A DNA stretch of 63,985 nt, counting the filler, from Elsinoe ampelina (taxonomy: Eukaryota): the NCBI GenBank assembly GCA_010093995.1. It is 4 parts of 3 records of this genome, joined end to end, with 100 filler letters (N's around TTAATTAATTAA, not from the genome) between each part and the next. Parts side by side here need not be neighbours in the genome. Positions count along the whole stretch, not along the records: positions 32,018 to 38,289 come from ML992514.1; 3 more parts are not named here. One strand, given 5' to 3'. The notes beneath the pieces are model-generated. The model was not told where the DNA came from and made no database searches. It worked only from the letters and a program-made list of their open reading frames with translations. The position numbers were made by a program, and so were the translations under genes. This document shows, in pieces, positions 31,918 to 63,985 of this stretch. Each line of letters begins with the position of its first letter. Positions within the stretch are counted from its first letter, which is position 1.

Positions 31918-32017
31918 NNNNNNNNNNNNNNNNNNNNNNNNNNNNNNNNNNNNNNNNNNNNTTAATTAATTAANNNNNNNNNNNNNNNNNNNNNNNNNNN
32001 NNNNNNNNNNNNNNNNN
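31918..32017. other. 100-bp assembly spacer containing the TTAATTAATTAA linker (also 38290-38389 and 62226-62325); plain N gaps at 39509-39938 and 40868-41262
   Basis: Identical N44-TTAATTAATTAA-N44 structure three times; a six-frame-stop contig joiner. Confidence 0.95.
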
Positions 32018-35000
32018 CCTCGTTCTTAGCTTAGCTTAGACTACTAGTATAGACTATATTTAGACAGTTCGTAATATTTTAACTACCCTTACTATAGTAT
32101 AGTACGCTACGAGGTTAATAAGTAACTCTTACTCTAAGTTACTATTAGTATCTTCAATTACTAGTAAGCTAGGAAAGCTTACTATTAACGACATATCTAC
32201 TACTAGTTTAACCTCGAGCGAACATAGAAGGTCTCTTAGTATAGGGGAAGAACAGAGTAAGCCTAAGTTAGAGATAAAACCCTTCTATAGAGACTACGCC
32301 TACTTAAGGCGCTTCCTTGTTTAACTTAAAGCCTTCTTCGCTCTAGAGAGAGATAAGTACGCTAACGACGTAGCAAAGGTTCTCTATGCTAGGATATACC
32401 TAAAAGGCGCCGCCTTCGGGTAGTTTAAGCCTTATATAAGTAGCTACCTAGACGGATAACTAAGCCTAGATACAAAGGCTATCTTTAAGAGCTTTAACAT
32501 TTTTTAGGCAAAGATTAAGTAAGTCTTTAACGTATCTAACGAGGAGCGCGTCGCTACGATAAAGATCTAACAACTATAACAACGTAGGTCTATAGCCTAG
32601 TACTATTCCTAGTTCTAATAACTCGTAATACACCTAGACTAGAATAATAGTACTAAATATTTAGTATTCTACTAAGGACTAAGCGACTTAGTTAAAGACT
32701 AAATAATACTCGAGCTGCCTAATAGCCTCTAAGAACTAGTAGATACTACAATTGCTATTAATAACTAACTCTATAAACGACATATAGAACGTTATAGAGA
32801 ATATAAGATAAATACTAGATATACGTGTTTCTCCTAAAACTATAGAGACTCTATAGAACTTAATACTATACGCGAGAGCTACTCCTTATAGGTATAAGGC
32901 TATAGCTATAGAGGAAAGTCCCTTAGTAGAAAAGAGAGAGAGAAGTATAGATAAGGCAACCTATGTTTTAAGTATAAAAGACCTAAGTATCGAGCTAGGG
33001 ACTACCGATAAGGGGCGCTAGCTAATAGATTATATATAATAGTTGCTAGACTAGTAGAAAAAAAGGCTAATACTACTATAGAAGACCTAATAACCTTTAG
33101 CGTAGGTAAGGAAATATAGAAGAAGTCTACGACGACTTAAGAGGTAATAGAATTCTCTCTAGATGTTATACTTAATATCTCTATAACTAATAGTAAATAA
33201 CAAAGCTAACACGTAACACTATTATAGATAGTATATTATAATAACTCTTATTATATTCACTTATTAGACAAGTAGGGATCTAGTTAGTTTCTATATAAGC
33301 TATCTAGGCGTAGGACTAACGAAATAGCTAGACTAGGAACCTAACCTAGAGAAGCTTTCTATAATTAGTAGTAACATTAACTAACCTTAGAAGGTAGTTA
33401 GCGACAATTATTAATATACAATTATTGAAATAAAGTATTAGAACGCAAGTACTATACGATAATATAGTAGCTTTACCTTTAGCCCTTATAGCGAACTATA
33501 AGGAAAGGTATATTATATATTACTCTAGAAATGTATAAATCTAAATTATAAATAGTACTATACTATCTACTTATACGATATACTTAGAGAAGAAGCTATT
33601 AGTCTTAAATACACTATAGACTTCTTAGTAATTAAAATAGGTAGTACTATTCCCTATAGCTAAGTATAAGAATATACTTAGTGTAGCCTTACTAACTATA
33701 ACTATACTAGGGGCAGTAGCGACGAAGAGAAATATAACAAAGAATATACTAAAAGACTATAATATAATAACACGGATAAAGACTTATTCGATAATAACGA
33801 TAACGATATACTACTACTAGGCGAACGACTTAAGGCATACCTTATAGAGATATAGAGAAACTATATAATAATATATACCTACTACTAGAATAGAATATAA
33901 CAACATAAATCTACTTAACTCGCGTTTATCTTTAATATAAATACCTAGCTATACCTAGAGAGAATAGTTATACTAATACGGGTGTATACTACTACTTAGT
34001 ATAACTAGTAGAGAATTATTGGACTTTATAGCTACTAAGGGACTTAGGCGCTAGAAGTTTACCTCGCTATATTAAATAGCGACAAAACACGACTTACCTA
34101 GTAGATATAGTACTAATAATAGATACGTACGGGAAGGGATTAACTACTTATCTAAGGCGCTACAATAACAAAAAACTAGCTAGTTATCGCCTAAGGAGGT
34201 AAGATAATAACACTAGCTAAAGCCTTAATATAATAAAGATCTATATATTAAATTACTTTATACTAGAAATCTAGATATAAGGAAATAAAGTAAGAGTAAT
34301 AATAGATTTAGGAGCTAACTATAGCTACGTCTCTATAACAATTGCTAATTAGCTTAAACCTTATTAACATTAGAAGGAGTTACCTTATCTACTTACTATA
34401 GCGAATAGAACCTCTATAGAGAAGAATAGGAAAGTTACTTAGGAACTATAGAACATTACAATTAAAATCGAAACACATATAGAAAAACGATTAATCGATA
34501 TAGTAGATATATAGTACAATATAGTACTTAGTATAGACTAGCTCTAATAATACAATCTAGACGTAGACTAGATTAAAGAAACACTTAAATTCCCTAAGTA
34601 TAATTATAAGAAGCAAGGAGCATAATTAGCTCTATAGATACTAACTACAAGGACAGTATAGGTATAACTAATAGTTAGAGCTATTACTAGCGTAAGTAAC
34701 TAAGCACTTCCGCCGGAATATAAAGACTTTAAGGATTTATTTAAAGAAAGGAAAGGTATTATAGCCTTACTCTAACATAAACTATAGAATTACGAAATAC
34801 CTTTTAAAGAAGGTAAATCCCTAATATACTATTAAGGTCTTATACTACTATTAAAATAAGAGGAGAATGTTCTTAAGAACTATATTAATAAGCACTTACT
34901 TAAAGGATTTATACAACTATTAAAATTACCTATTACGTACGAAGTGCTTTTTATACTAAAAAAGAATAAGATATTACAAATATATATTAATTATTAGAAA

Positions 35001-38000
35001 CTTAATATACTTACTAGGAAGAATCGCTATCCTCTACTAAGGATTAACAAACTTTAAAACTAACTTCTTAGAGCTAAATAGTTTACCGTAATTAACATTA
35101 GGGACGCCTATTATTAAGTATAAATAAAGGAGAGTAAGGAGTAGAAAACAGCTTTTAGGACATAATAGAGTCTATATAAGTACCTCGTTATACTCTTTAG
35201 GTTAACTAACGCTCCTATAACCTTCTAAGAGTTAATTAATAATACTCTATAAGAATACCTTAATAACTTTATCTTAGTATATTTAGATAATATTATTATC
35301 TTCTTAAAGATGTATAATAAATATATAGGACATGTTTATAAAGTGCTATAGAAACTAAAAGAGAAAGACCTACTAGTAAAACTCTCTAAGTGTAAGTTCT
35401 ATAAGTATAAGATATAATTTCTAAGCTATATTATATCTACTAATAGTATTAGATCTAATCTAAAGAAGATTAAGTTAGTAAATAACTAGCTAGAACCTAT
35501 AATAGTTAAGGAGGTTTAAGCGCTACTAGAGTTCTTTAACTACTACTATAAGTTTATTAAGAGATTCTCTAAAGTAGCTATACTAATATTTAACCTTACG
35601 AAAAAGAAAACTAGCTTTATCTTTAACGAAAAATATAAGTAGGCCTTTAAGGAGCTAAAGCTTAGACTTATAATAGTACCTATCCTAGTACTCTTCGACC
35701 TAGACTAATAGGCACTACTAGAAACGAATGCCTCGGACTTTGCAATAGAAGCGTATCTAGCGTAGAAGGACGCGGAAGAATAATGCTACTTAATTATATA
35801 CTACTTACGGAAAATAACTAGACCTAAACTTAACTATAATATATATAATAAGGAGTTACTTGTAATTATAGAAGTATTCCGTAAGTAGAGAGTATATCTA
35901 GAAGAAATAACCTTACCTATATAAGTCTATACTAACTATAAGAACCTATTATATTAGATAATAACTAAGGTTCTTAATAGGCGATAGGTTTAATAGTTAG
36001 AAACACTTATAAGCTACAACTTTTAGATCTACTATATTAAGGAATTAGAGAATAGTAGAGTAGACGCTCTTAGCCGACGACTAGACTACTTAAAGAATAT
36101 AACAATAATAGAGGCCTCTATACTAAAGTAGTAAGACAGCGCTCTAGTCTATAAGCACCCGAAGGTAGAGTAGTTATATAGCCTTACCTAGGAGCTTACG
36201 TAAGAATAGAAGAAAGAAGTTATTTAAATACACTATAATAACCTAATAGTAGAATATAGTAGGATCGATAAGACTATTAAACTTATTACATAAAACTACC
36301 TATAGAAAGGACTCTAAAATAATATTAAGACATATATTACTATATGTAATATATGCTATAAGTCTAAGCACTTATAACATAAGCTATATAGCCTATTATA
36401 ACTCTTGCCACTACTAGACAAACTATAGTAATCGGTTATAATAGACTTTATAGGACCTCTACTACTATTAGAAGAATCTCTTATAGGTGTAAAGTATAGT
36501 AGCATTCTAGTTCTAGTAGATAGATTTACAAAGTATTACTACTTTATACTATATAAGATAATAGTAACTACTAAGGATATAGCCTTTACCTTCCTCCGAA
36601 TAATTGTTTTATAACATAGAGTACTAAGAGACCTAATAACTAATAGAGATAAGCTATTTACATTACAATTCTAGTAATTATTTATAGATCTACTAGGAGT
36701 TAAATATAAGCTATTAATCTCCTTTTATCTATAAATAGATAGACAAACTAAGTAGGCAAATTAAGTACTAGAGTAGTACCTATAATGCTACCTAAACTAT
36801 AAGTAAGACTTATAGGTAATACTATTACCGCTTATAGAGCTTGCTATTAATAATAGAAAGTTAGTAAATAGAATTTTACTATTTTACGTAAACTATAGAA
36901 TATACCTAGATCTATACTATAACATACTTAGAATTAAGCTAATATCTAAGGATGCTAATATACTAGTAGCTAATATTAAGAAACTATATAACTAGCTATA
37001 CTACGATATAGTATTTATATTATAAAGGATAGTAGAGTTTACTAACTAGAAGAGAATTATAGGACTAATTCTAAAGGAGGAGAAGAAGGTTTATCTCCTT
37101 AGTAAGAACATTAAGACTAAAAGACTAAGTAAGAAACTTAACTACACTAAACTAGGACCTTTTAAAATCCTAGAAAAGAAAAATAAGAACGTATATAAAC
37201 TAGAACTACTAAGATATATAAGGATCTATCTAGTCTTCTATATATTACTACTAGAGAGAGTACTATAGAACGCTATACTTAGACCTATCGAACTAGATAA
37301 AGAAACATAGAAGCTATAGTATAAGATCGAAAGGATTTTACATTATAAACTTATAAAAGAAAAACGCTACTATCTTATTTACTAGAAGGGACATTAGTAT
37401 AGTAAAGCAATATAGGAACTAGAGAAGTACCTTACCTTATAAGCAATTCTAGATTACTAGATCGAGAACCTATTCTAAGTAAACCGACTAGACGGACCTA
37501 GTACTTCTAATACTAAATAAAAATAAGAATACCTAAGGAAGATTACTTAGCTAATAGGAGCACCTTAATTATTGCTAAATAGAGAACCCTAGTCGGAGTT
37601 AGGCATAAATAATTACTAGTCCTATAGTAGGATAGGATCTACCGACGATAGTATTTCCTTCTACTCTAGGACTTAAATACGAGTCTCCTCTAAAGAGATT
37701 ACTTTCTCTACCTTATTCTTTAACTTTTGTATTTCTTTACGTAGGTAAAGCTTATTACCTATAGCTCTTTAATAAGCCTCTTTTGCCTTTTTATAAGCTT
37801 CTTTAGCTCTCCTTCTAGTAGCCTTAGCTATAACTAATTCCTTTTATAAACGAATATACTTAGACTAGAGACACTACTATTCTAATTTTGTTACTTAAAT
37901 ATTATAGCTCGAGTAGTTACTTATAATATACTAGCTATAGATACTCGACTAAATATAGACCTTATAGTCTAGCCTCTTCGATTTATAATAAGAACAAGCC

Positions 38001-38289
38001 TATAGTATATTAGTTCCGAATAGCTTAATAAACTCTAAGAGATTCTTTCGCGTAGATATACTAGATTTACTATGCCTTTAACAACTAGGAGGCATATTTA
38101 GTATATAGCGTATAAAGATAAGGAAGAATACTTACTCGTTAGAATAACTTAATTAAAGGAGAAGAGTAATGTTACAAACTAGTAGGATAGCTAAAGCGTA
38201 GAGACGTTAGGACTAATTAAACTACTAAGGTTATTACGTGACCTAGCTCGACATTTACCTAGTTCTCTATCTTCTCTAGTAGCTCTACC
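32018..38289 (+). mobile_element. RIP-mutated Ty3/gypsy chromovirus internal region: gag, protease, RT, RNase H, integrase, chromodomain
   Basis: De-RIP motifs: CFKCxxPGHRARDC knuckle about 32964; IDSGA protease about 34300; MPFGLTNAP about 35190; YLDDI about 35279; ETDASDFAIGA 35721; FHPQTDGQTE about 36723; chromodomain YEIERIL..YLIHWKG..ATWEPE 37320-37425. LTRs not seen (gaps). Confidence 0.93.
37500..38095 (-). pseudogene. Extra antisense ORF of the gypsy element: Cys6 cluster plus coiled coil, inactivated by RIP
   Basis: ATG 38095 MPPS..; one frame held for more than 160 codons, interrupted only by TAA/TAG stops that RIP can produce; 3' end approximate. Confidence 0.65.
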
Positions 38290-38389
38290 NNNNNNNNNNN
38301 NNNNNNNNNNNNNNNNNNNNNNNNNNNNNNNNNTTAATTAATTAANNNNNNNNNNNNNNNNNNNNNNNNNNNNNNNNNNNNNNNNNNNN

Positions 38390-41300
38390 AGATCTTTTTC
38401 TTTTACTAGTTAGAGGTTATATGTTAAATAGTGTAATAAGGAAGTTAATATCCTTATTCTATATATATATTAGTAGTTAATTAACATTAACTATAGAATT
38501 AAAGGTTAAATGTAGTTTACTAATAACTTTAGGTAGTAGTATTATAAGGTCTTTACCTTTATAATTAGTAACATTAAGTTACTTCCCCTGTTTATTAACA
38601 GGTTAAGGATCTAGTTTAGGATATTAGTGTTACTTCTTCTATTCTTTAATAGGGGTAGATAATTGTTATTTATATCTAGGGATAGAAGAGTAGTTAGATG
38701 TTAGTTGTTTAACTTAAGGTTATTTAGCCTAAGTAGTTTATAGATTCTTATAACTAAAGAGTAGTTAGTTATAGCTATAGCCTTAATTATAATTACTACT
38801 AAATATCTACTCTCTCTAAAGCTATAAAGCCTTAGGTTGTTATACCTATAGGATATATAGCTGTTTAATAACTTATATTACTTAGTCTTTATAGACTATA
38901 TTCTTATTAAATATTATATAGAGTGATATAATAATCTTTCCCTTCTAGGCTTACTAAGTATAATACTAATAGAGTATCTAGATAAGGTAATTAGTTATTA
39001 AGTTGTTCTATATACTAATATACTAACTAAGTAGTGCTCTAGCTTAGAATTTATATAATTTAGAAATATATTAGTTATAGACATAGGCTCTATAGCTAAA
39101 GTGTCTAATATAAGTTAATAAGACTAGCCTATTATTATTAAGAAGATTCTTTCTTAGCTCTTATATAGGGATCTTCTTAGTTTTAGTGTAGGTAATTCTA
39201 TTACTAATATAGATTATAAACTCTATAACTATATACTAGAGTTTAAGAGGTGCTCTATAATTAATAAAGATATACCTTGTTCTAAGAATAACTACTTTAT
39301 TAGTAGCCTTAGATTTACTATTTTAGTATTAAGTATTAGGTGTAGAGATATCCTATCTCTATCCTTTAAGATAAATAGCTATTACTAGTTTATAGTTCTT
39401 AAATTTACTCCCTTTATTAGAGATAAAGATAAATAAAAGCTTATTATAGGCTATTTTATTCCTTATATAGATAAGTTTAATTACTACTAGTATATTACTC
39501 TTAAGGAANNNNNNNNNNNNNNNNNNNNNNNNNNNNNNNNNNNNNNNNNNNNNNNNNNNNNNNNNNNNNNNNNNNNNNNNNNNNNNNNNNNNNNNNNNNN
39601 NNNNNNNNNNNNNNNNNNNNNNNNNNNNNNNNNNNNNNNNNNNNNNNNNNNNNNNNNNNNNNNNNNNNNNNNNNNNNNNNNNNNNNNNNNNNNNNNNNNN
39701 NNNNNNNNNNNNNNNNNNNNNNNNNNNNNNNNNNNNNNNNNNNNNNNNNNNNNNNNNNNNNNNNNNNNNNNNNNNNNNNNNNNNNNNNNNNNNNNNNNNN
39801 NNNNNNNNNNNNNNNNNNNNNNNNNNNNNNNNNNNNNNNNNNNNNNNNNNNNNNNNNNNNNNNNNNNNNNNNNNNNNNNNNNNNNNNNNNNNNNNNNNNN
39901 NNNNNNNNNNNNNNNNNNNNNNNNNNNNNNNNNNNNNNTTAGCTTTTAAGTAGTTATAATAGCTAGATTTACTCTTATAGCCTATAGCTTCTATAGTTTT
40001 AGCCTTATAGGTAATTCCTTGTAGTTCTAAGGCTTATAGACTTTAAAGTTCTTAAGCTATTTAACTCTTTTAAAGTGTTTAATAAGGCTAACTTCCTTTC
40101 TATCCTTTATTAAGAATTTACTAACTATAAAGATACTAAGTTCCTCTTTATTCTAAAGATTAAATATAAGAGTATTTAGTAATAATAGTAAGTATATATA
40201 ATTATAAAGCTTAATAATTAACTTCTTGCCTTTGCTATTAGTTAAGGTAAGCCTAACTATACTAACTTCTATATTAAGTAGCTTCTTTATACTAATAGCT
40301 TATTTAAATTTAAGAATACCTTTATATACCTTAATTATTAAGAACTATAACCTGTCTTTAATAAAGTGCCTTAATACACTAGAGTTATAGATTACTCTAT
40401 TCTTGCTATAGGTTAAGAATAATAATGTAGATACTACTACTACTCTATAGACTAGTATAATAATATTAATATTAGTATTAGAGCGTTTATCTAATTTACC
40501 TACCTTAGTAGGTTCTCTAGATTCTTTAATAGCTGCTTAACCTCTAACTTTCTTAGTCTTTAACTTGTTACCTTTGCCTTTAGCCTTTATATCTTTATTA
40601 TTTAACCTGTCTTTATTATCCCTTTTACTTTAACTCTTTAGTGCTTTCTTAGGGTACTACTTAAAGTAATCTATATTAGAGTAGATATAATAAGTATACT
40701 AAGTATATTAATCCTTAATATAACTAGCTACTCTATAAATAGAGTTTAGATTAGTTCTTCTATTATATAGAGGCTTCTATATTCTAAGAGAGCCTATTAT
40801 CTCTTTAAGACTCTTCTTATAGTTAAGGCTAGATCTCTAGCTCCTTAACTATTTAGTAGTCTCTATTNNNNNNNNNNNNNNNNNNNNNNNNNNNNNNNNN
40901 NNNNNNNNNNNNNNNNNNNNNNNNNNNNNNNNNNNNNNNNNNNNNNNNNNNNNNNNNNNNNNNNNNNNNNNNNNNNNNNNNNNNNNNNNNNNNNNNNNNN
41001 NNNNNNNNNNNNNNNNNNNNNNNNNNNNNNNNNNNNNNNNNNNNNNNNNNNNNNNNNNNNNNNNNNNNNNNNNNNNNNNNNNNNNNNNNNNNNNNNNNNN
41101 NNNNNNNNNNNNNNNNNNNNNNNNNNNNNNNNNNNNNNNNNNNNNNNNNNNNNNNNNNNNNNNNNNNNNNNNNNNNNNNNNNNNNNNNNNNNNNNNNNNN
41201 NNNNNNNNNNNNNNNNNNNNNNNNNNNNNNNNNNNNNNNNNNNNNNNNNNNNNNNNNNNNNNACCTTATAGATTGCCTTAGTGCCTTTACTAGTATCTAG

Positions 41301-62225: not shown

Positions 62226-62325
62226 NNNNNNNNNNNNNNNNNNNNNNNNNNNNNNNNNNNNNNNNNNNNTTAATTAATTAANNNNNNNNNNNNNNNNNNN
62301 NNNNNNNNNNNNNNNNNNNNNNNNN

Positions 62326-63985
62326 CTTTAATTACTAGTAAGCTAGAAAGACTTACTATTAATAATATATCTACTACTAGTTTAACCTCGAGTAAATATA
62401 GAAGGTCTCTTAGTATAGAGAAGAGATAAAGTAGACCTAAGCTAGAGGTAGAACTCTTCTATAGAGACTACGCCTACTTAAGGCACTTCCTTATTTAACT
62501 TAAAGCCTTCTTTACTCTAGAGAGAGATAAATACGCTAACGATATAGTAAAGGTTCTCTATACTAGAATATACCTTAAAGGCGCTACCTTTAGGTAGTTT
62601 AAGCCTTATATAAGTAGCTACCTAGACGGATAACTAAGTCTAGATATAAAGGCTATCTTTAAGAGTTTTAGTATCTTCTAAGCGAAGATTAAGTAAGTCT
62701 TTAATATATCTAATAAAGAATATATTACTATAATAAAGATTTAATAACTATAATAACGTAGGTCTATAGCTTAGTACTATTTCTAGTTCTAATAACTTAT
62801 AATATACCTAGACTAGGATAATAGTACTAAATATTTAGTATTCTACTAAGGACTAAGCGACTTAGTTAAAGACTAAATAATACCTAAGTTGCCTAATAGC
62901 CTCTAAGAACTAGTAGATACTATAATTACTATTAATAACTAACTTTACGAACGATATATAGAACATTATAGAGAATATAAGGCAAATACTAGATATACGT
63001 GTCTCTCTTAGAACTATAGAGACTCTATAGAACTTAACGCTATACGCGAAGGTTACCTCTTATAGGTAAAAGACTAAGGTTATAGAGGAAAGTTCCTTAG
63101 TAGAAAAGAGAGAGAGAAGTATAGATAAGACAATTTATATTTTAAGTGTAAAAGACCTAGGTATTAAGCTAGGGACTACTAGTAAGAAGCGCTAGCTAAT
63201 AAATTACATATAATAGTTACTAAGCTAGTAAAGAAAAAGGCTAACACTACTATAGAAGACCTAACGACCTTTAGCGTAGATAAGGAAATATAGAAGAAGT
63301 CTACGACGACTTAAGAGATAAGAAAATCCTCTCTAGATATTATACTTAATATCTCTATAACTAATAGTAAATAATAAAGCTAATACGCGACGCTATTATA
63401 GATAGTATACTATAATAACTCTTATTATATTTACTTATTAGATAAGTAAGGATCTAGTTAGTTTCTATATAAGCTATCTAAGCGTAGGTAACTAACGAAA
63501 TAGCTAGACTAGAGACCTAACCTAGAAGAGTTCTCTATAATTAGTAGTAAAACTAACTAACTATAGAAGGTAGTTAGCGATAATTACTAATATATAATTA
63601 TTAAGACGAAGTATTAGGACGCAAGTACTATACAATAATATAGTAGTCTTACCTTTAGCTCTTATAGTAAACTATAAGGAAAGGTATATTATATATCGCT
63701 CTAGAAATATATAAATCTAAATTATAAATAGTACTATTCTATCTACTTATATAATGTACTTAGAGAAGACGCTATTAGTCTCGAATATACTATAGACTTC
63801 TTAGTAATCGAGATAGATAGTACTATTCCCTATAGCTAAGTATAAGAGTATACTCGGTATAGCCTTACTAACTATAACTATACTAGGGGTAGTAGTAACA
63901 AAGAGAAATATAATAAGAAATACACTAAACAACTATAGTATAATAATATAGATAAGGACTTATCTAATAATAATAATATACCGCT
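62326..63985 (+). mobile_element. Second copy of the RIP-mutated gypsy element (gag region)
   Basis: Collinear with about 32152-33812, differing mostly by C/T and G/A transitions. Confidence 0.93.

What the first reader, a model, noticed from the sequence alone, without database searches (positions are those of the whole stretch)
37500..38095. Chromovirus carries an antisense ORF encoding a Zn(II)2Cys6-spaced cluster plus coiled coil
Seen: downstream of the chromodomain, the minus strand from ATG 38095 holds one frame for more than 160 codons with only TAA/TAG interruptions. At 37996-37904 the codons TGT, TAT, TAT, TAT, TAT, TAT are spaced x2, x6, x8, x2, x7. Reverting RIP (TGT to TAT) gives C-x2-C-x6-C-x8-C-x2-C-x7-C, matching the GAL4-type binuclear cluster consensus. 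A long charged helix follows (IRL*KELVIAKATRRRAKEAYKKAKE..LRKEIQKLKNKVEKVISLEE). Inference: a retrotransposon-encoded, transcription-factor-like accessory protein expressed antisense from the 3' end, possibly controlling element transcription, targeting or counter-silencing. Five of the six Cys are reconstructed, not observed.
Basis: partly seen in the sequence, partly recalled or inferred. Interest (0 to 1): 0.8.

Follow-up and report, generated by a model that had tools for sequence, protein, structure and literature searches.

The report
Retrotransposon's dead antisense zinc-cluster gene
A mutation-riddled fungal retrotransposon carries, on its opposite strand, the remains of a small gene that intact relatives in many ascomycetes keep under selection and that looks like a miniature Gal4-type transcription factor.

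Summary
The minus-strand frame from ATG 38095 is a RIP-killed copy (18 TAA/TAG stops in 198 codons) of a real protein family. It matched 10 proteins at E<=1e-3, best 1.9e-14, among 1.8 billion. Against a profile of 34 intact members it scores 77 bits.

The family has about 175-210 residues: a basic N-terminal helix, a C-x2-C-x6-C-x8-C-x2-C-x6-8-C cluster, an ~80-residue helix and an acidic/aromatic tail. It lies tail-to-tail with a chromodomain-bearing Ty3/gypsy pol in 49 of 61 metagenome loci. Its ATG lies 28-100 nt inside the 3' LTR in four intact relatives and 75 nt inside it in the window. Median dN/dS is 0.105.

Membership in the Gal4 Zn2Cys6 family is likely but not proven. The spacing fits and all Foldseek rows shown through rank 25 are Zn2Cys6 domains, but the E-values are weak and the Pfam scores seen are below threshold.

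Function is inferred: an element-encoded dimeric DNA-binding regulator. The closest precedent is the antisense gene brtn of Botrytis Boty. Homology to it could not be tested.

The parts
32018..38289 (+). One 6272-base contig holding a RIP-degraded Ty3/gypsy chromovirus. It is joined to its neighbours by artificial N44-TTAATTAATTAA-N44 linkers.
   Evidence: N runs and linkers. GC is 0.22-0.41 in 250-base windows inside the contig. Pfam hits are all in one + frame.
35025..36017 (+). Reverse transcriptase (35025-35435) and RNase H (35625-36017) of pol, read through stops.
   Evidence: RVT_1 E 1.5e-13, RT_RNaseH_2 E 1.2e-17, RT_RNaseH E 2.8e-14. Coordinates are converted from residues of the frame that starts at 32019.
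36204..37259 (+). Integrase: H2C2 zinc domain (36204-36371) through the Tf2-1-like SH3 domain (37086-37259).
   Evidence: Integrase_H2C2 E 4.4e-4 (20.7 bits, below its cut-off of 25.5). SH3_Tf2-1 E 3.2e-8.
37320..37460 (+). Chromodomain at the C-terminus of pol (approximate limits).
   Evidence: tblastn of the last 230 residues of intact pols from L004, L015, L019 and L030 aligns to 36792-37457, best 184 bits. In those pols, Pfam Chromo sits in the last ~55 residues.
37610..38095 (-). RIP-killed antisense accessory ORF. The start is ATG 38095-38093. Homology to the family runs over residues 5-162. The original ORF probably ran on to about 37550.
   Evidence: phmmer best E 1.9e-14. 77.3 bits against the profile of A4 over residues 5-162, with no frameshift. 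Stops listed.
38015..38065 (-). Conserved basic N-terminal helix region (residues 11-27).
   Evidence: Aligned with the conserved S-S-T-x-R-R...F-I-x-x-F-G block. Helix 17-31 in the model of P0001.
37904..37996 (-). Six-Cys cluster. One TGT is kept and five have become TAT. The conserved His is also TAT (37957-37955).
   Evidence: Codons. Cys columns are invariant in A3 and A4. Profile alignment.
37643..37888 (-). Long helix (coiled-coil region), residues about 70-151.
   Evidence: Corresponds to helix 75-156 of P0001, pLDDT 91-97, with a residue offset of 5 taken. It forms the predicted homodimer interface in a relative.
38155..38166 (+). Polypurine tract of the element.
   Evidence: A 12-base purine run followed, after 3 bases, by TGTTAC. 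The same arrangement is seen in 4 of 5 intact relatives examined.
38170..38289 (+). Start of the 3' LTR (begins TGTTAC), cut off by the end of the contig.
   Evidence: Motif match to the LTR starts of L005, L015, L019 and L033. The other LTR end and the 5' LTR are not on the contig, so the full extent is unknown.

Best explanation
What it is (about 0.9). Window 37610-38095, minus strand, is a dead copy of an accessory gene that a widespread lineage of ascomycete chromoviruses carries antisense. The copy was destroyed by repeat-induced point mutation (RIP).

Position of the gene. It lies between the chromodomain end of pol and the 3' LTR. Its ATG sits a few tens of bases inside the LTR, just past the polypurine tract. 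Its mRNA must therefore start in, or right at, the 3' LTR and read inward.

The intact protein, about 175-210 aa, has four parts:
- a basic N-terminal helix;
- a six-Cys cluster with Gal4-type spacing;
- an ~80-residue helix that is predicted to pair with a second copy;
- a conserved acidic/aromatic C-terminal tail.

How it most likely works (about 0.45; inferred, nothing shown). It would be a zinc-dependent, dimeric, sequence-specific DNA-binding protein made by the element itself. It would act on the element's own LTR, or on nearby DNA, to tune element transcription. The C-terminal tail would serve as the contact to host transcription machinery. This makes it a functional analogue of antisense-encoded retroviral regulators such as HTLV-1 HBZ.

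Shown here: homology, gene position and orientation, conservation of the Cys and His, and purifying selection.
Inferred: zinc binding, DNA binding, the target, the direction of regulation, and the antisense promoter.
For: Homology:
- 10 hits at E<=1e-3, best 1.9e-14, among 1.84 billion representatives.
- The window frame scores 77.3 bits against the family profile, with no frameshift.
- A profile of 34 members finds 218 cluster representatives at E<=1e-5.

Cys cluster:
- The six Cys are invariant and the His is >=90% conserved in A3 (33 sequences) and A4 (34 sequences).
- The motif is present in 46 of 61 loci.

Link to the element:
- 49 of 61 loci have the pol C-terminus on the opposite strand within 700 nt. 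Eight have too little flank and four have none.
- 28 of 30 adjacent minus-strand ORFs carry SH3_Tf2-1 plus Chromo.
- A polypurine tract plus a TGTTA LTR start lies 28-100 nt upstream of the ATG in 4 of 5 intact relatives and 75 nt upstream in the window.

Selection:
- dN/dS is 0.03-0.16, median 0.105, in the 15 of 561 pairs with pS between 0.05 and 0.6.
- Mean divergence of the ORF (0.52) is like that of the pol C-terminus (0.50).

Transcription-factor likeness:
- The domain model has pLDDT 84.4, with two short helices each starting at a C-x2-C.
- All 21 Foldseek rows shown through rank 25 are Zn2Cys6 DNA-binding proteins: Pho7, Hap1, Gal4, Leu3, Put3, Ppr1 and CBF3.
- Pfam Zn_clus matches 19 of 33 members at E<=1, best 7.2e-4.
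- One member is named 'Zn(2)-C6 fungal-type domain-containing' by UniRef.

Dimer:
- ESMFold2 ipSAE 0.54 against a best control of 0.00. The runs agree in >=90% of contacts and the partner's pLDDT is >=72.
- In the tool's calibration, 21 of 30 proteins solved as pairs of one chain reached that mark, and 0 of 23 solved as single chains did.
- The alignment was not used, and zinc riding along makes these counts rough.
Against: - No Pfam family reaches its curated cut-off. In the nine tables printed, Zn_clus scored 10.8-12.5 bits against a cut-off of 21. None of the 120 listed homologues has a precomputed Pfam domain.
- A profile search of PDB sequences found no Zn2Cys6 protein at E<=10.
- All Foldseek E-values are weak (best 0.38; none <=0.001). 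VIA-align gives only Z 2.8 (rmsd 3.8 A, 38 aligned) to the Hap1 domain. The search independent of Foldseek gave nothing above Z 2.2.
- The family has a conserved His and lacks the Pro usually found before the fourth Cys of Gal4-type clusters (the Pro is recalled). More members match DUF5651 (27 of 33) than Zn_clus.
- The predicted dimer contacts (79 with 114, 93 with 100) are antiparallel. That would put the two clusters far apart, unlike Gal4 dimers.
- I saw no obvious CGG repeats in the four LTRs I read (read by eye only).
- Expression, zinc binding and DNA binding were not tested.
Confidence: 0.45

Rival explanations
1. Same conserved element-encoded protein, but not a regulator of the LTR. 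The zinc module and the long helix would mediate protein, RNA or chromatin contacts. Possible roles are guiding integration together with the chromodomain integrase, countering host silencing, or self-limiting copy number.
For: - Pfam membership in Zn_clus is not met, and DUF5651 and DUF3716 match at least as well.
- DUF3716 proteins are also carried by an unrelated DNA transposon, REP9 of Zymoseptoria, with unknown function (PMC8232023, passages read).
- The predicted dimer is antiparallel.
- The gene sits next to the chromodomain.
- An LTR-flanked 2.1-kb derivative keeps the ORF intact while pol is gone (L006/L007). That fits a factor acting in trans.
Against: - The top fold matches are all DNA-binding Zn2Cys6 domains.
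- The layout of basic helix, Cys6 cluster, long helix and acidic/aromatic tail is that of a small activator.
- None of the alternative roles has any direct support here.
Confidence: 0.35
2. The antisense unit acts mainly as RNA. An antisense transcript from the 3' LTR would overlap the end of pol and dampen or process the sense RNA. The ORF would be secondary.
For: - The ORF and pol are convergent. In 14 of the 49 loci the ORF match overlaps the aligned end of pol, by 16-82 nt.
- Antisense transcripts of retroelements are known regulators (general knowledge).
Against: - dN/dS of about 0.1 and the invariant Cys show constraint on the protein sequence itself.
- Most of the ORF lies outside pol.
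Confidence: 0.1
3. A host transcription-factor fragment captured once, riding along neutrally in the element.
For: - Zn2Cys6 proteins are abundant host genes in fungi (general knowledge).
- Retroelements do capture additional ORFs (PMC5408684; abstract seen only in the listing).
Against: - The ORF is kept intact in 37 of 61 loci, across copies about 50% diverged in protein sequence.
- Selection on it is strongly purifying.
- Its position relative to the polypurine tract and the LTR is fixed.
- No full-length host-type Zn2Cys6 factor appeared among the hits, although lengths outside 95-373 residues were not searched.
Confidence: 0.05
4. Chance: in AT-rich RIPped DNA, TAT codons are so common that a Cys6-like spacing can be picked out anywhere.
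For: - There are 8 Tyr in 31 residues.
- The same pattern with C or Y allowed occurs antisense to gag-pol at 33802 and 63978.
- The stop density is the same as in the other frames.
Against: - Homology at E 1.9e-14 to intact proteins, with all five Tyr in Cys columns.
- The pattern turns up in only 0.75% of shuffles of the region.
Confidence: 0.01

Closest known systems
[quoted passage not shown] 2011, Virology 417:248)
   Same: It is a fungal chromodomain-bearing gypsy element with an extra gene in antisense orientation between pol and the 3' LTR. This is known from passages in PMC7264820, PMC4227169 and PMC8365987. A Monilinia transcript matches both a truncated Pol and BRTN, which implies that they are adjacent (PMC5987419).
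   Different: Whether BRTN is homologous to this family is unknown. The paper is not held and I saw no sequence or domain description. No hit among the 120 listed carried that name. The passages I read ascribe no zinc cluster or transcription-factor likeness to brtn.
Antisense additional ORFs between pol and the 3' LTR of plant gypsy elements (Grande, RIRE2, Retand, PvRetro13)
   Same: The position and orientation are the same. They are conserved among copies to a degree like gag-pol, and their function is unknown (PMC7264820, passages).
   Different: They occur in plant, mostly non-chromovirus lineages with long 3' internal regions. No sequence relation was tested. Here the gene is compact and abuts both pol and the LTR.
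Fungal Zn(II)2Cys6 binuclear-cluster transcription factors (Gal4, Hap1, Ppr1, Put3, Leu3, Pho7; Pfam PF00172)
   Same: The Cys spacing is the same. Each C-x2-C starts a short helix, and a helical dimerisation region follows the cluster. These proteins are the best fold matches.
   Different: - This protein is much smaller and has no middle homology region.
- Pfam scores are below threshold.
- It has a conserved His and an extra N-terminal helix.
- The predicted dimer is antiparallel.
- It is encoded by a retrotransposon rather than by the host.
HTLV-1 HBZ, the antisense-encoded bZIP factor transcribed from the 3' LTR (recalled, not from a call)
   Same: It works alike in layout. It is a small dimerising DNA-binding-type regulator encoded on the minus strand of a retroelement, with its start at the 3' LTR.
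   Different: The fold is unrelated (bZIP) and the host is a vertebrate retrovirus. The likeness is an analogy only. Nothing about the expression or function of the fungal protein was tested.
Pfam DUF5651 (PF18892) and DUF3716 (PF12511), including the DUF3716 proteins REP9-1/REP9-2 of the Zymoseptoria IS3EU transposon
   Same: These are weak sequence matches over the first half of the Cys cluster. DUF5651 matches 27 of 33 members, best E 3.1e-5. DUF3716 matches 5 of 33, best E 4.4e-5. DUF3716 proteins are also transposon-borne (PMC8232023).
   Different: Where bit scores were printed they are below the curated cut-offs: 17.2 bits against 27 and 22. The function of both DUFs is unknown, and the carrier is a different class of transposon.

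Membership tests
Fungal Zn(2)-Cys(6) binuclear cluster domain (Gal4 type, Pfam PF00172) | Six Cys spaced C-x2-C-x6-C-x5-12-C-x2-C-x6-8-C | tested here: met
   Intact relatives have C-x2-C-x6-C-x8-C-x2-C-x6-8-C, and 46 of 61 loci match the pattern. The six Cys are invariant in A3 and A4. The window copy keeps 1 TGT and has 5 TAT at exactly those columns.
Fungal Zn(2)-Cys(6) binuclear cluster domain (Gal4 type, Pfam PF00172) | Score above the Pfam gathering threshold (21 bits) | tested here: not met
   Every table printed showed 10.8-12.5 bits. 19 of 33 members match at E<=1, best 7.2e-4, whose bit score was not printed. None of the 120 listed homologues has a precomputed Pfam domain.
Fungal Zn(2)-Cys(6) binuclear cluster domain (Gal4 type, Pfam PF00172) | Fold: two short helices, each begun by a C-x2-C, around the metal site | tested here: inconclusive
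   The AF2 domain model (pLDDT 84.4) has helices at 28-33 and 47-51, right after Cys27/30 and Cys46/49. Foldseek rows through rank 25 are all Zn2Cys6 proteins, but best E is 0.38. VIA-align gives Z 2.8, rmsd 3.8 A, 38 aligned to 1pyc. The wide search gave nothing above Z 2.2.
Fungal Zn(2)-Cys(6) binuclear cluster domain (Gal4 type, Pfam PF00172) | Binds two zinc ions and CGG-type DNA sites | not testable with these tools
   This needs metal analysis and DNA-binding assays. The zinc placed is not scored.
Fungal Zn(2)-Cys(6) binuclear cluster domain (Gal4 type, Pfam PF00172) | Coiled-coil dimerisation element C-terminal to the cluster | tested here: inconclusive
   There is a long helix at 75-156, pLDDT 91-97. 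The homodimer score is 0.54 against a control of 0.00. However, the contacts are antiparallel, unlike the parallel coils of Gal4 and Ppr1 (the latter recalled).
Antisense additional ORF between pol and 3' LTR of LTR retrotransposons (aORF-3R, including Boty brtn) | Lies between the end of pol and the 3' LTR, on the opposite strand | tested here: met
   In the window, pol ends at about 37460-37500, the ORF spans 38095-37610 on the minus strand, and the LTR starts at 38170. Among relatives, 49 of 61 loci show the same arrangement. The polypurine tract and LTR start lie just upstream of the ATG in 4 of 5.
Antisense additional ORF between pol and 3' LTR of LTR retrotransposons (aORF-3R, including Boty brtn) | Conserved among copies to a degree like gag-pol | tested here: met
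   Median dN/dS is 0.105. Mean protein distance is 0.52, against 0.50 for the pol C-terminus, over 24 loci.
Antisense additional ORF between pol and 3' LTR of LTR retrotransposons (aORF-3R, including Boty brtn) | Sequence homology to BRTN of Botrytis | not testable with these tools
   The paper is not held, and no BRTN sequence or name appeared in any tool output.
Antisense additional ORF between pol and 3' LTR of LTR retrotransposons (aORF-3R, including Boty brtn) | Own antisense transcript | not tested
Ty3/gypsy chromovirus (the carrier element) | pol order RT - RNase H - integrase - chromodomain on one strand | tested here: met
   For the window. For relatives: RVT_1, RT_RNaseH, Integrase_H2C2, rve, SH3_Tf2-1 and Chromo, with gag upstream.
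Ty3/gypsy chromovirus (the carrier element) | Two LTRs flanking the internal region | tested here: inconclusive
   Only the first 120 bases of the 3' LTR are on the contig. No internal repeat was found. The contig is bounded by artificial linkers.
Pfam DUF5651 / DUF3716 | Score above the curated cut-off (27 and 22 bits) | tested here: not met
   The printed scores are 17.2 bits for each. The best E-values among 33 members are 3.1e-5 and 4.4e-5, with bit scores not printed.

The most novel reading that the evidence does not exclude
A large, old lineage of ascomycete chromoviruses encodes its own Gal4-like zinc-cluster transcription factor. The factor would be made from an antisense promoter in the 3' LTR. 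It would bind the element's LTR as a dimer and switch element transcription, making it a fungal counterpart of HBZ or Tax. Such transposon-borne zinc-cluster genes could also have seeded host Zn2Cys6, DUF3716 or DUF5651 genes by domestication.
Probability: 0.3. Interest if true: 0.8.

Novelty: new variant of a known kind. Interest (0 to 1): 0.62.

Why it matters
- LTR retrotransposons are usually thought to rely on host factors for transcription. An element-encoded factor of Gal4 type, kept under strong purifying selection across many ascomycete chromoviruses, would be a self-supplied regulator and a clear experimental handle on how these elements are switched.
- It gives a domain reading to a family now annotated only as 'hypothetical protein', or wrongly (galactokinase, AcrA). 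The family has 218 cluster representatives and ESM Atlas clusters of 62-210 members.
- It links transposon-borne Cys-cluster proteins (DUF3716 in a DNA transposon) with the largest family of fungal transcription factors.
- It shows that a RIP-destroyed gene can be read back correctly from the direction of RIP changes.
- If brtn of Boty turns out to be a member, it supplies the missing domain interpretation for that gene.

Tried and rejected
- Whole-genome search of the window's own assembly: none is held. No census of genomic copies or de-RIP comparison was therefore possible.
- Word-indexed protein search with the degraded frame: 27 candidates, none at E<=1. The index-free search then succeeded.
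- Laying public runs. Runs X1 and X2, which come from one sample, gave 3133 and 4837 contig pieces at >=80% likeness. Only 40 of 275 differences were printed, and none was at the five TAT middle bases, so this could not decide Cys versus Tyr. It did show that 37995 (the G of the one TGT) is T on the + strand in about 95-97% of the summed depth. Depth cannot be used to delimit the LTR, by the tool's own warning.
- RNA: no RNA holder was listed. The two runs guessed to be RNA, X3 and X6, laid nothing. This says nothing about expression.
- Profile search of PDB sequences: only coiled-coil noise, best E 0.24.
- VIA-align wide search: nothing above Z 2.2.
- Pfam on the six frames of the contig: no family on the minus strand, as expected for a RIPped copy.
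- A host Zn2Cys6 gene in the window, wanted for a profile comparison: none matches the Cys pattern in any frame.
- Earlier findings of this scan: nothing held.
- Literature. The brtn paper is not held. No paper holds 'binuclear cluster' together with 'LTR retrotransposon' and 'antisense'. The searches listed none whose title or abstract start describes a zinc-cluster gene in a fungal retrotransposon. The PDF supplements of PMC8365987, which draw brtn, could not be seen.
- Co-divergence of the ORF and pol. Mantel r is 0.43, with 0 of 2000 permutations reaching it, but Spearman is only 0.10. I draw no conclusion from this beyond similar overall divergence.
Full report
**The place.** The window's AT-rich block is not one continuous piece of genome. 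Runs of 44 N around TTAATTAATTAA at 31918-32017 and 38290-38389 are artificial linkers. So 32018-38289 is a separate 6272-base contig.

Read through its many stops, one + strand frame from 32019 carries RVT_1, two RNase H models, Integrase_H2C2 and the Tf2-1-type SH3 domain. The last 230 residues of intact relatives' pols, which end in a chromodomain, align to 36792-37457. The contig is therefore a RIP-degraded Ty3/gypsy chromovirus. GC is 0.22-0.41 in 250-base windows inside it, against about 0.5 in the genic flanks. A second, partial copy lies at 62326-63973, 88% identical to 32152-33797.

**The observation.** Codon 34 is TGT. Codons 37, 44, 53, 56 and 64 are TAT, at the coordinates given. 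All 18 stops in 198 codons are TAA or TAG.

On its own this was only suggestive:
- The five Tyr were chosen from 8 Tyr in 31 residues.
- The frame has as many stops as the other two minus frames.
- The same spacing with C or Y allowed also occurs antisense to gag-pol at 33802 and at its paralogue 63978.
- Dinucleotide shuffles produce the pattern in 0.75% of 2000 shuffles of 37500-38289. They average 0.16 per contig, against 2 observed.

**What decides it.** A word-indexed search with the degraded peptide found nothing. An index-free phmmer scan of 1.84 billion representatives found 10 proteins at E<=1e-3, best 1.9e-14.

Eight of the ten are intact proteins of 175-211 residues. Two (P0008, P0009) have Tyr in place of five and four of the six Cys, that is, they show RIP-like decay of their own. 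Against a profile of 34 intact members the window frame scores 77.3 bits over residues 5-162 without a frameshift. TGT to TAT is a G-to-A change in a TpG/CpA context, the direction RIP takes. In the public runs that hold this element, the one surviving TGT is itself TAT in about 95-97% of the summed depth.

**The family.**
- A profile of eight members found 37 relatives.
- A profile of 34 members found 218 cluster representatives at E<=1e-5. None of the 120 listed has a precomputed Pfam domain. Most are 'hypothetical protein'. Two are named from Hortaea werneckii and Elsinoe australis, the latter called 'Zn(2)-C6 fungal-type domain-containing' by UniRef.
- The ESM Atlas places the family next to unnamed Ascomycota clusters of 62-210 members.

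The conserved architecture is as follows:
- Met-Pro at the start;
- a basic S-S-T-x-R-R...F-I-x-x-F-G helix;
- the cluster C-x2-C-x6-C-(K/R)-V-H-V-R-S-G-x-C-x2-C-x6-8-C;
- a V-T-x-S-E-(F/W)-x-R-L turn;
- an ~80-residue helix, pLDDT 91-97;
- an acidic stretch;
- a conserved L-S-P-x-T-W...D-x-F-W tail.

**Link to the element.** A scan of metagenome contigs returned 61 loci from 32 record-name prefixes.
- In 49 of them the chromodomain end of a pol lies on the opposite strand within 700 nt of the ORF's end, often overlapping it. Eight have too little flank. Four have none.
- Pfam on 30 adjacent minus-strand ORFs found SH3_Tf2-1 plus Chromo in 28, with full protease-RT-RNase H-integrase arrays in the long ones and gag beyond.
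- Thirty-seven loci keep an ORF of at least 150 residues with the six Cys, giving 34 distinct proteins.
- Many contigs have 123-174-base terminal overlaps, meaning the two LTRs were collapsed in assembly. That shows only 200-570 nt between the ORF's ATG and the gag ORF.
- In 4 of the 5 such loci read, a polypurine tract followed by an LTR starting TGTTA lies 28-100 nt upstream of the ATG.
- The window shows the same. The purine run is at 38155-38166 and TGTTAC at 38170, 75 nt from the ATG.

The gene therefore fills the whole space between pol and the 3' LTR. It must be transcribed from within or at the edge of that LTR.

**Selection.** Of 561 pairs of distinct ORFs, 15 had synonymous difference between 0.05 and 0.6. 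The rest, nearly all saturated, were dropped. In those 15 pairs dN/dS is 0.03-0.16, median 0.105. Mean protein divergence (0.52) equals that of the pol C-terminus (0.50) over 24 loci. Distances correlate only loosely: Mantel r is 0.43 with 0 of 2000 permutations reaching it, but Spearman is 0.10. The protein is functional in live elements.

**Is it a Gal4-type cluster?**

For:
- The spacing fits the consensus exactly.
- The AF2 domain model (pLDDT 84.4) has a short helix starting at each C-x2-C.
- The 21 Foldseek rows shown through rank 25, of 31 matches, are all Zn2Cys6 DNA-binding proteins, with unrelated chains only below them.
- Zn_clus is the second most frequent Pfam match, at 19 of 33 members and best E 7.2e-4.

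Against:
- All printed Zn_clus scores are 10.8-12.5 bits, below the 21-bit cut-off.
- Foldseek's best E is 0.38.
- VIA-align gives Z 2.8, rmsd 3.8 A, 38 aligned, and nothing in the wide search.
- A PDB sequence profile search finds no Zn2Cys6 protein.
- DUF5651 matches more members (27 of 33).

I therefore call it a divergent Zn2Cys6-like cluster: membership is probable but not shown.

**Self-association.** The homodimer model passes its controls. The ipSAE is 0.54 against 0.00, the runs agree in >=90% of contacts, and the partner's pLDDT is >=72. In the tool's calibration, 21 of 30 proteins solved as pairs of one chain reached the mark, and 0 of 23 solved as single chains did. The alignment was not used and zinc rode along. 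The pairing is antiparallel, unlike Gal4.

**Mechanism.** The layout is that of a minimal activator: a basic helix, a Cys6 cluster, a long pairing helix and an acidic/aromatic tail. Its gene sits where an antisense promoter in the 3' LTR would drive it.

My best reading (0.45) is an element-encoded dimeric DNA-binding regulator of the element's own transcription. It would work like, though be unrelated to, HTLV-1 HBZ (recalled).

The main rival (0.35) keeps the protein but gives it another job: integration targeting, counter-silencing or copy-number control. An LTR-flanked 2.1-kb derivative keeps the ORF intact while pol is deleted and gag is decayed (L006/L007). That fits any trans-acting role.

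A mainly RNA-level role (0.1) is hard to square with dN/dS of 0.1. Neutral capture (0.05) and chance (0.01) are disfavoured.

**What is known.** Antisense extra ORFs between pol and the 3' LTR are described in plant gypsy elements, and in the fungal chromovirus Boty as 'brtn' (passages in PMC7264820, PMC8365987, PMC4227169 and PMC5987419). I could not read the brtn paper or see its sequence, so homology is open; my guess is that it is more likely than not.

No paper in the held library combines 'binuclear cluster', 'LTR retrotransposon' and 'antisense'. The searches listed none whose title or abstract start describes a zinc-cluster gene in a fungal retrotransposon. DUF3716, a weak match, is carried by the REP9 DNA transposon of Zymoseptoria (PMC8232023).

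**Verdict.** I rate it a new variant of a known kind and set the interest at 0.62.

The copy in this window is a fossil. The finding's value lies in the conserved family it exposes.

Noticed in passing
window 31918-32017, 38290-38389, 62226-62325: N44-TTAATTAATTAA-N44 linkers. The window is a pseudomolecule of concatenated contigs. Neighbours across these joins, including the element contig and the genes around it, need not be adjacent in the real genome.
   Followed up: partly
window 62326-63973: A second, partial copy of the same element (5' part only), 88% identical to 32152-33797, on another linker-bounded contig at the window's end.
   Followed up: partly
window about 33802-33680 and 63978-63860, minus strand: The Cys6 spacing with C or Y allowed also appears antisense to gag-pol in both copies (3 and 2 real Cys). 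I treated it as a chance example. Homology was not checked.
   Followed up: no
window 39509-39938 and 40868-41262: Long N runs (430 and 395 bases) lie inside further AT-rich, RIP-like sequence. That sequence shows no similarity to the element contig in blastn.
   Followed up: no
L007 7551-9964 (and the same unit in L006 4673-7086): A 2.1-kb unit flanked by 330-base direct repeats (95% identical). It holds an intact 175-residue accessory ORF facing a decayed gag (Retrotrans_gag, zf-CCHC) and has no pol. It is a non-autonomous derivative that kept the accessory gene.
   Followed up: partly
L005, L013, L015, L019, L020, L026, L030, L033, L039 (contig ends): The contig ends carry direct repeats of 123-174 bases, identical in seven and 99.3-99.4% alike in L020 and L033. 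The contigs are circularly permuted, either because the two LTRs collapsed in assembly or because the DNA came from real one-LTR circles.
   Followed up: no
LTRs of L005, L015, L019, L033 (between the accessory ATG and gag): The LTRs start with a conserved TGTTA, share a TATATAG box, and hold short tandem motifs upstream of it (GAGCAA-type repeats, TGATCA repeats, CACGTG). These are candidate regulatory sites. No CGG inverted repeats were evident by eye.
   Followed up: no
L030 147-1007 and L037 302-1171: The accessory ORF is extended to 287-290 residues in these two loci. The extensions have no Pfam match.
   Followed up: partly
P0008, P0009: These are members of the family from other sources in which Tyr replaces five (P0008) and four (P0009) of the six Cys, and also the conserved His. 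This is the same RIP-type decay as in the window, arisen independently.
   Followed up: partly
hits P0023, P0056, P0037, P0139, P0142: Their sources name these family members galactokinase, AcrA, a DUF465 protein or chromosome segregation ATPase. These are evidently mis-annotations of the coiled-coil region.
   Followed up: no
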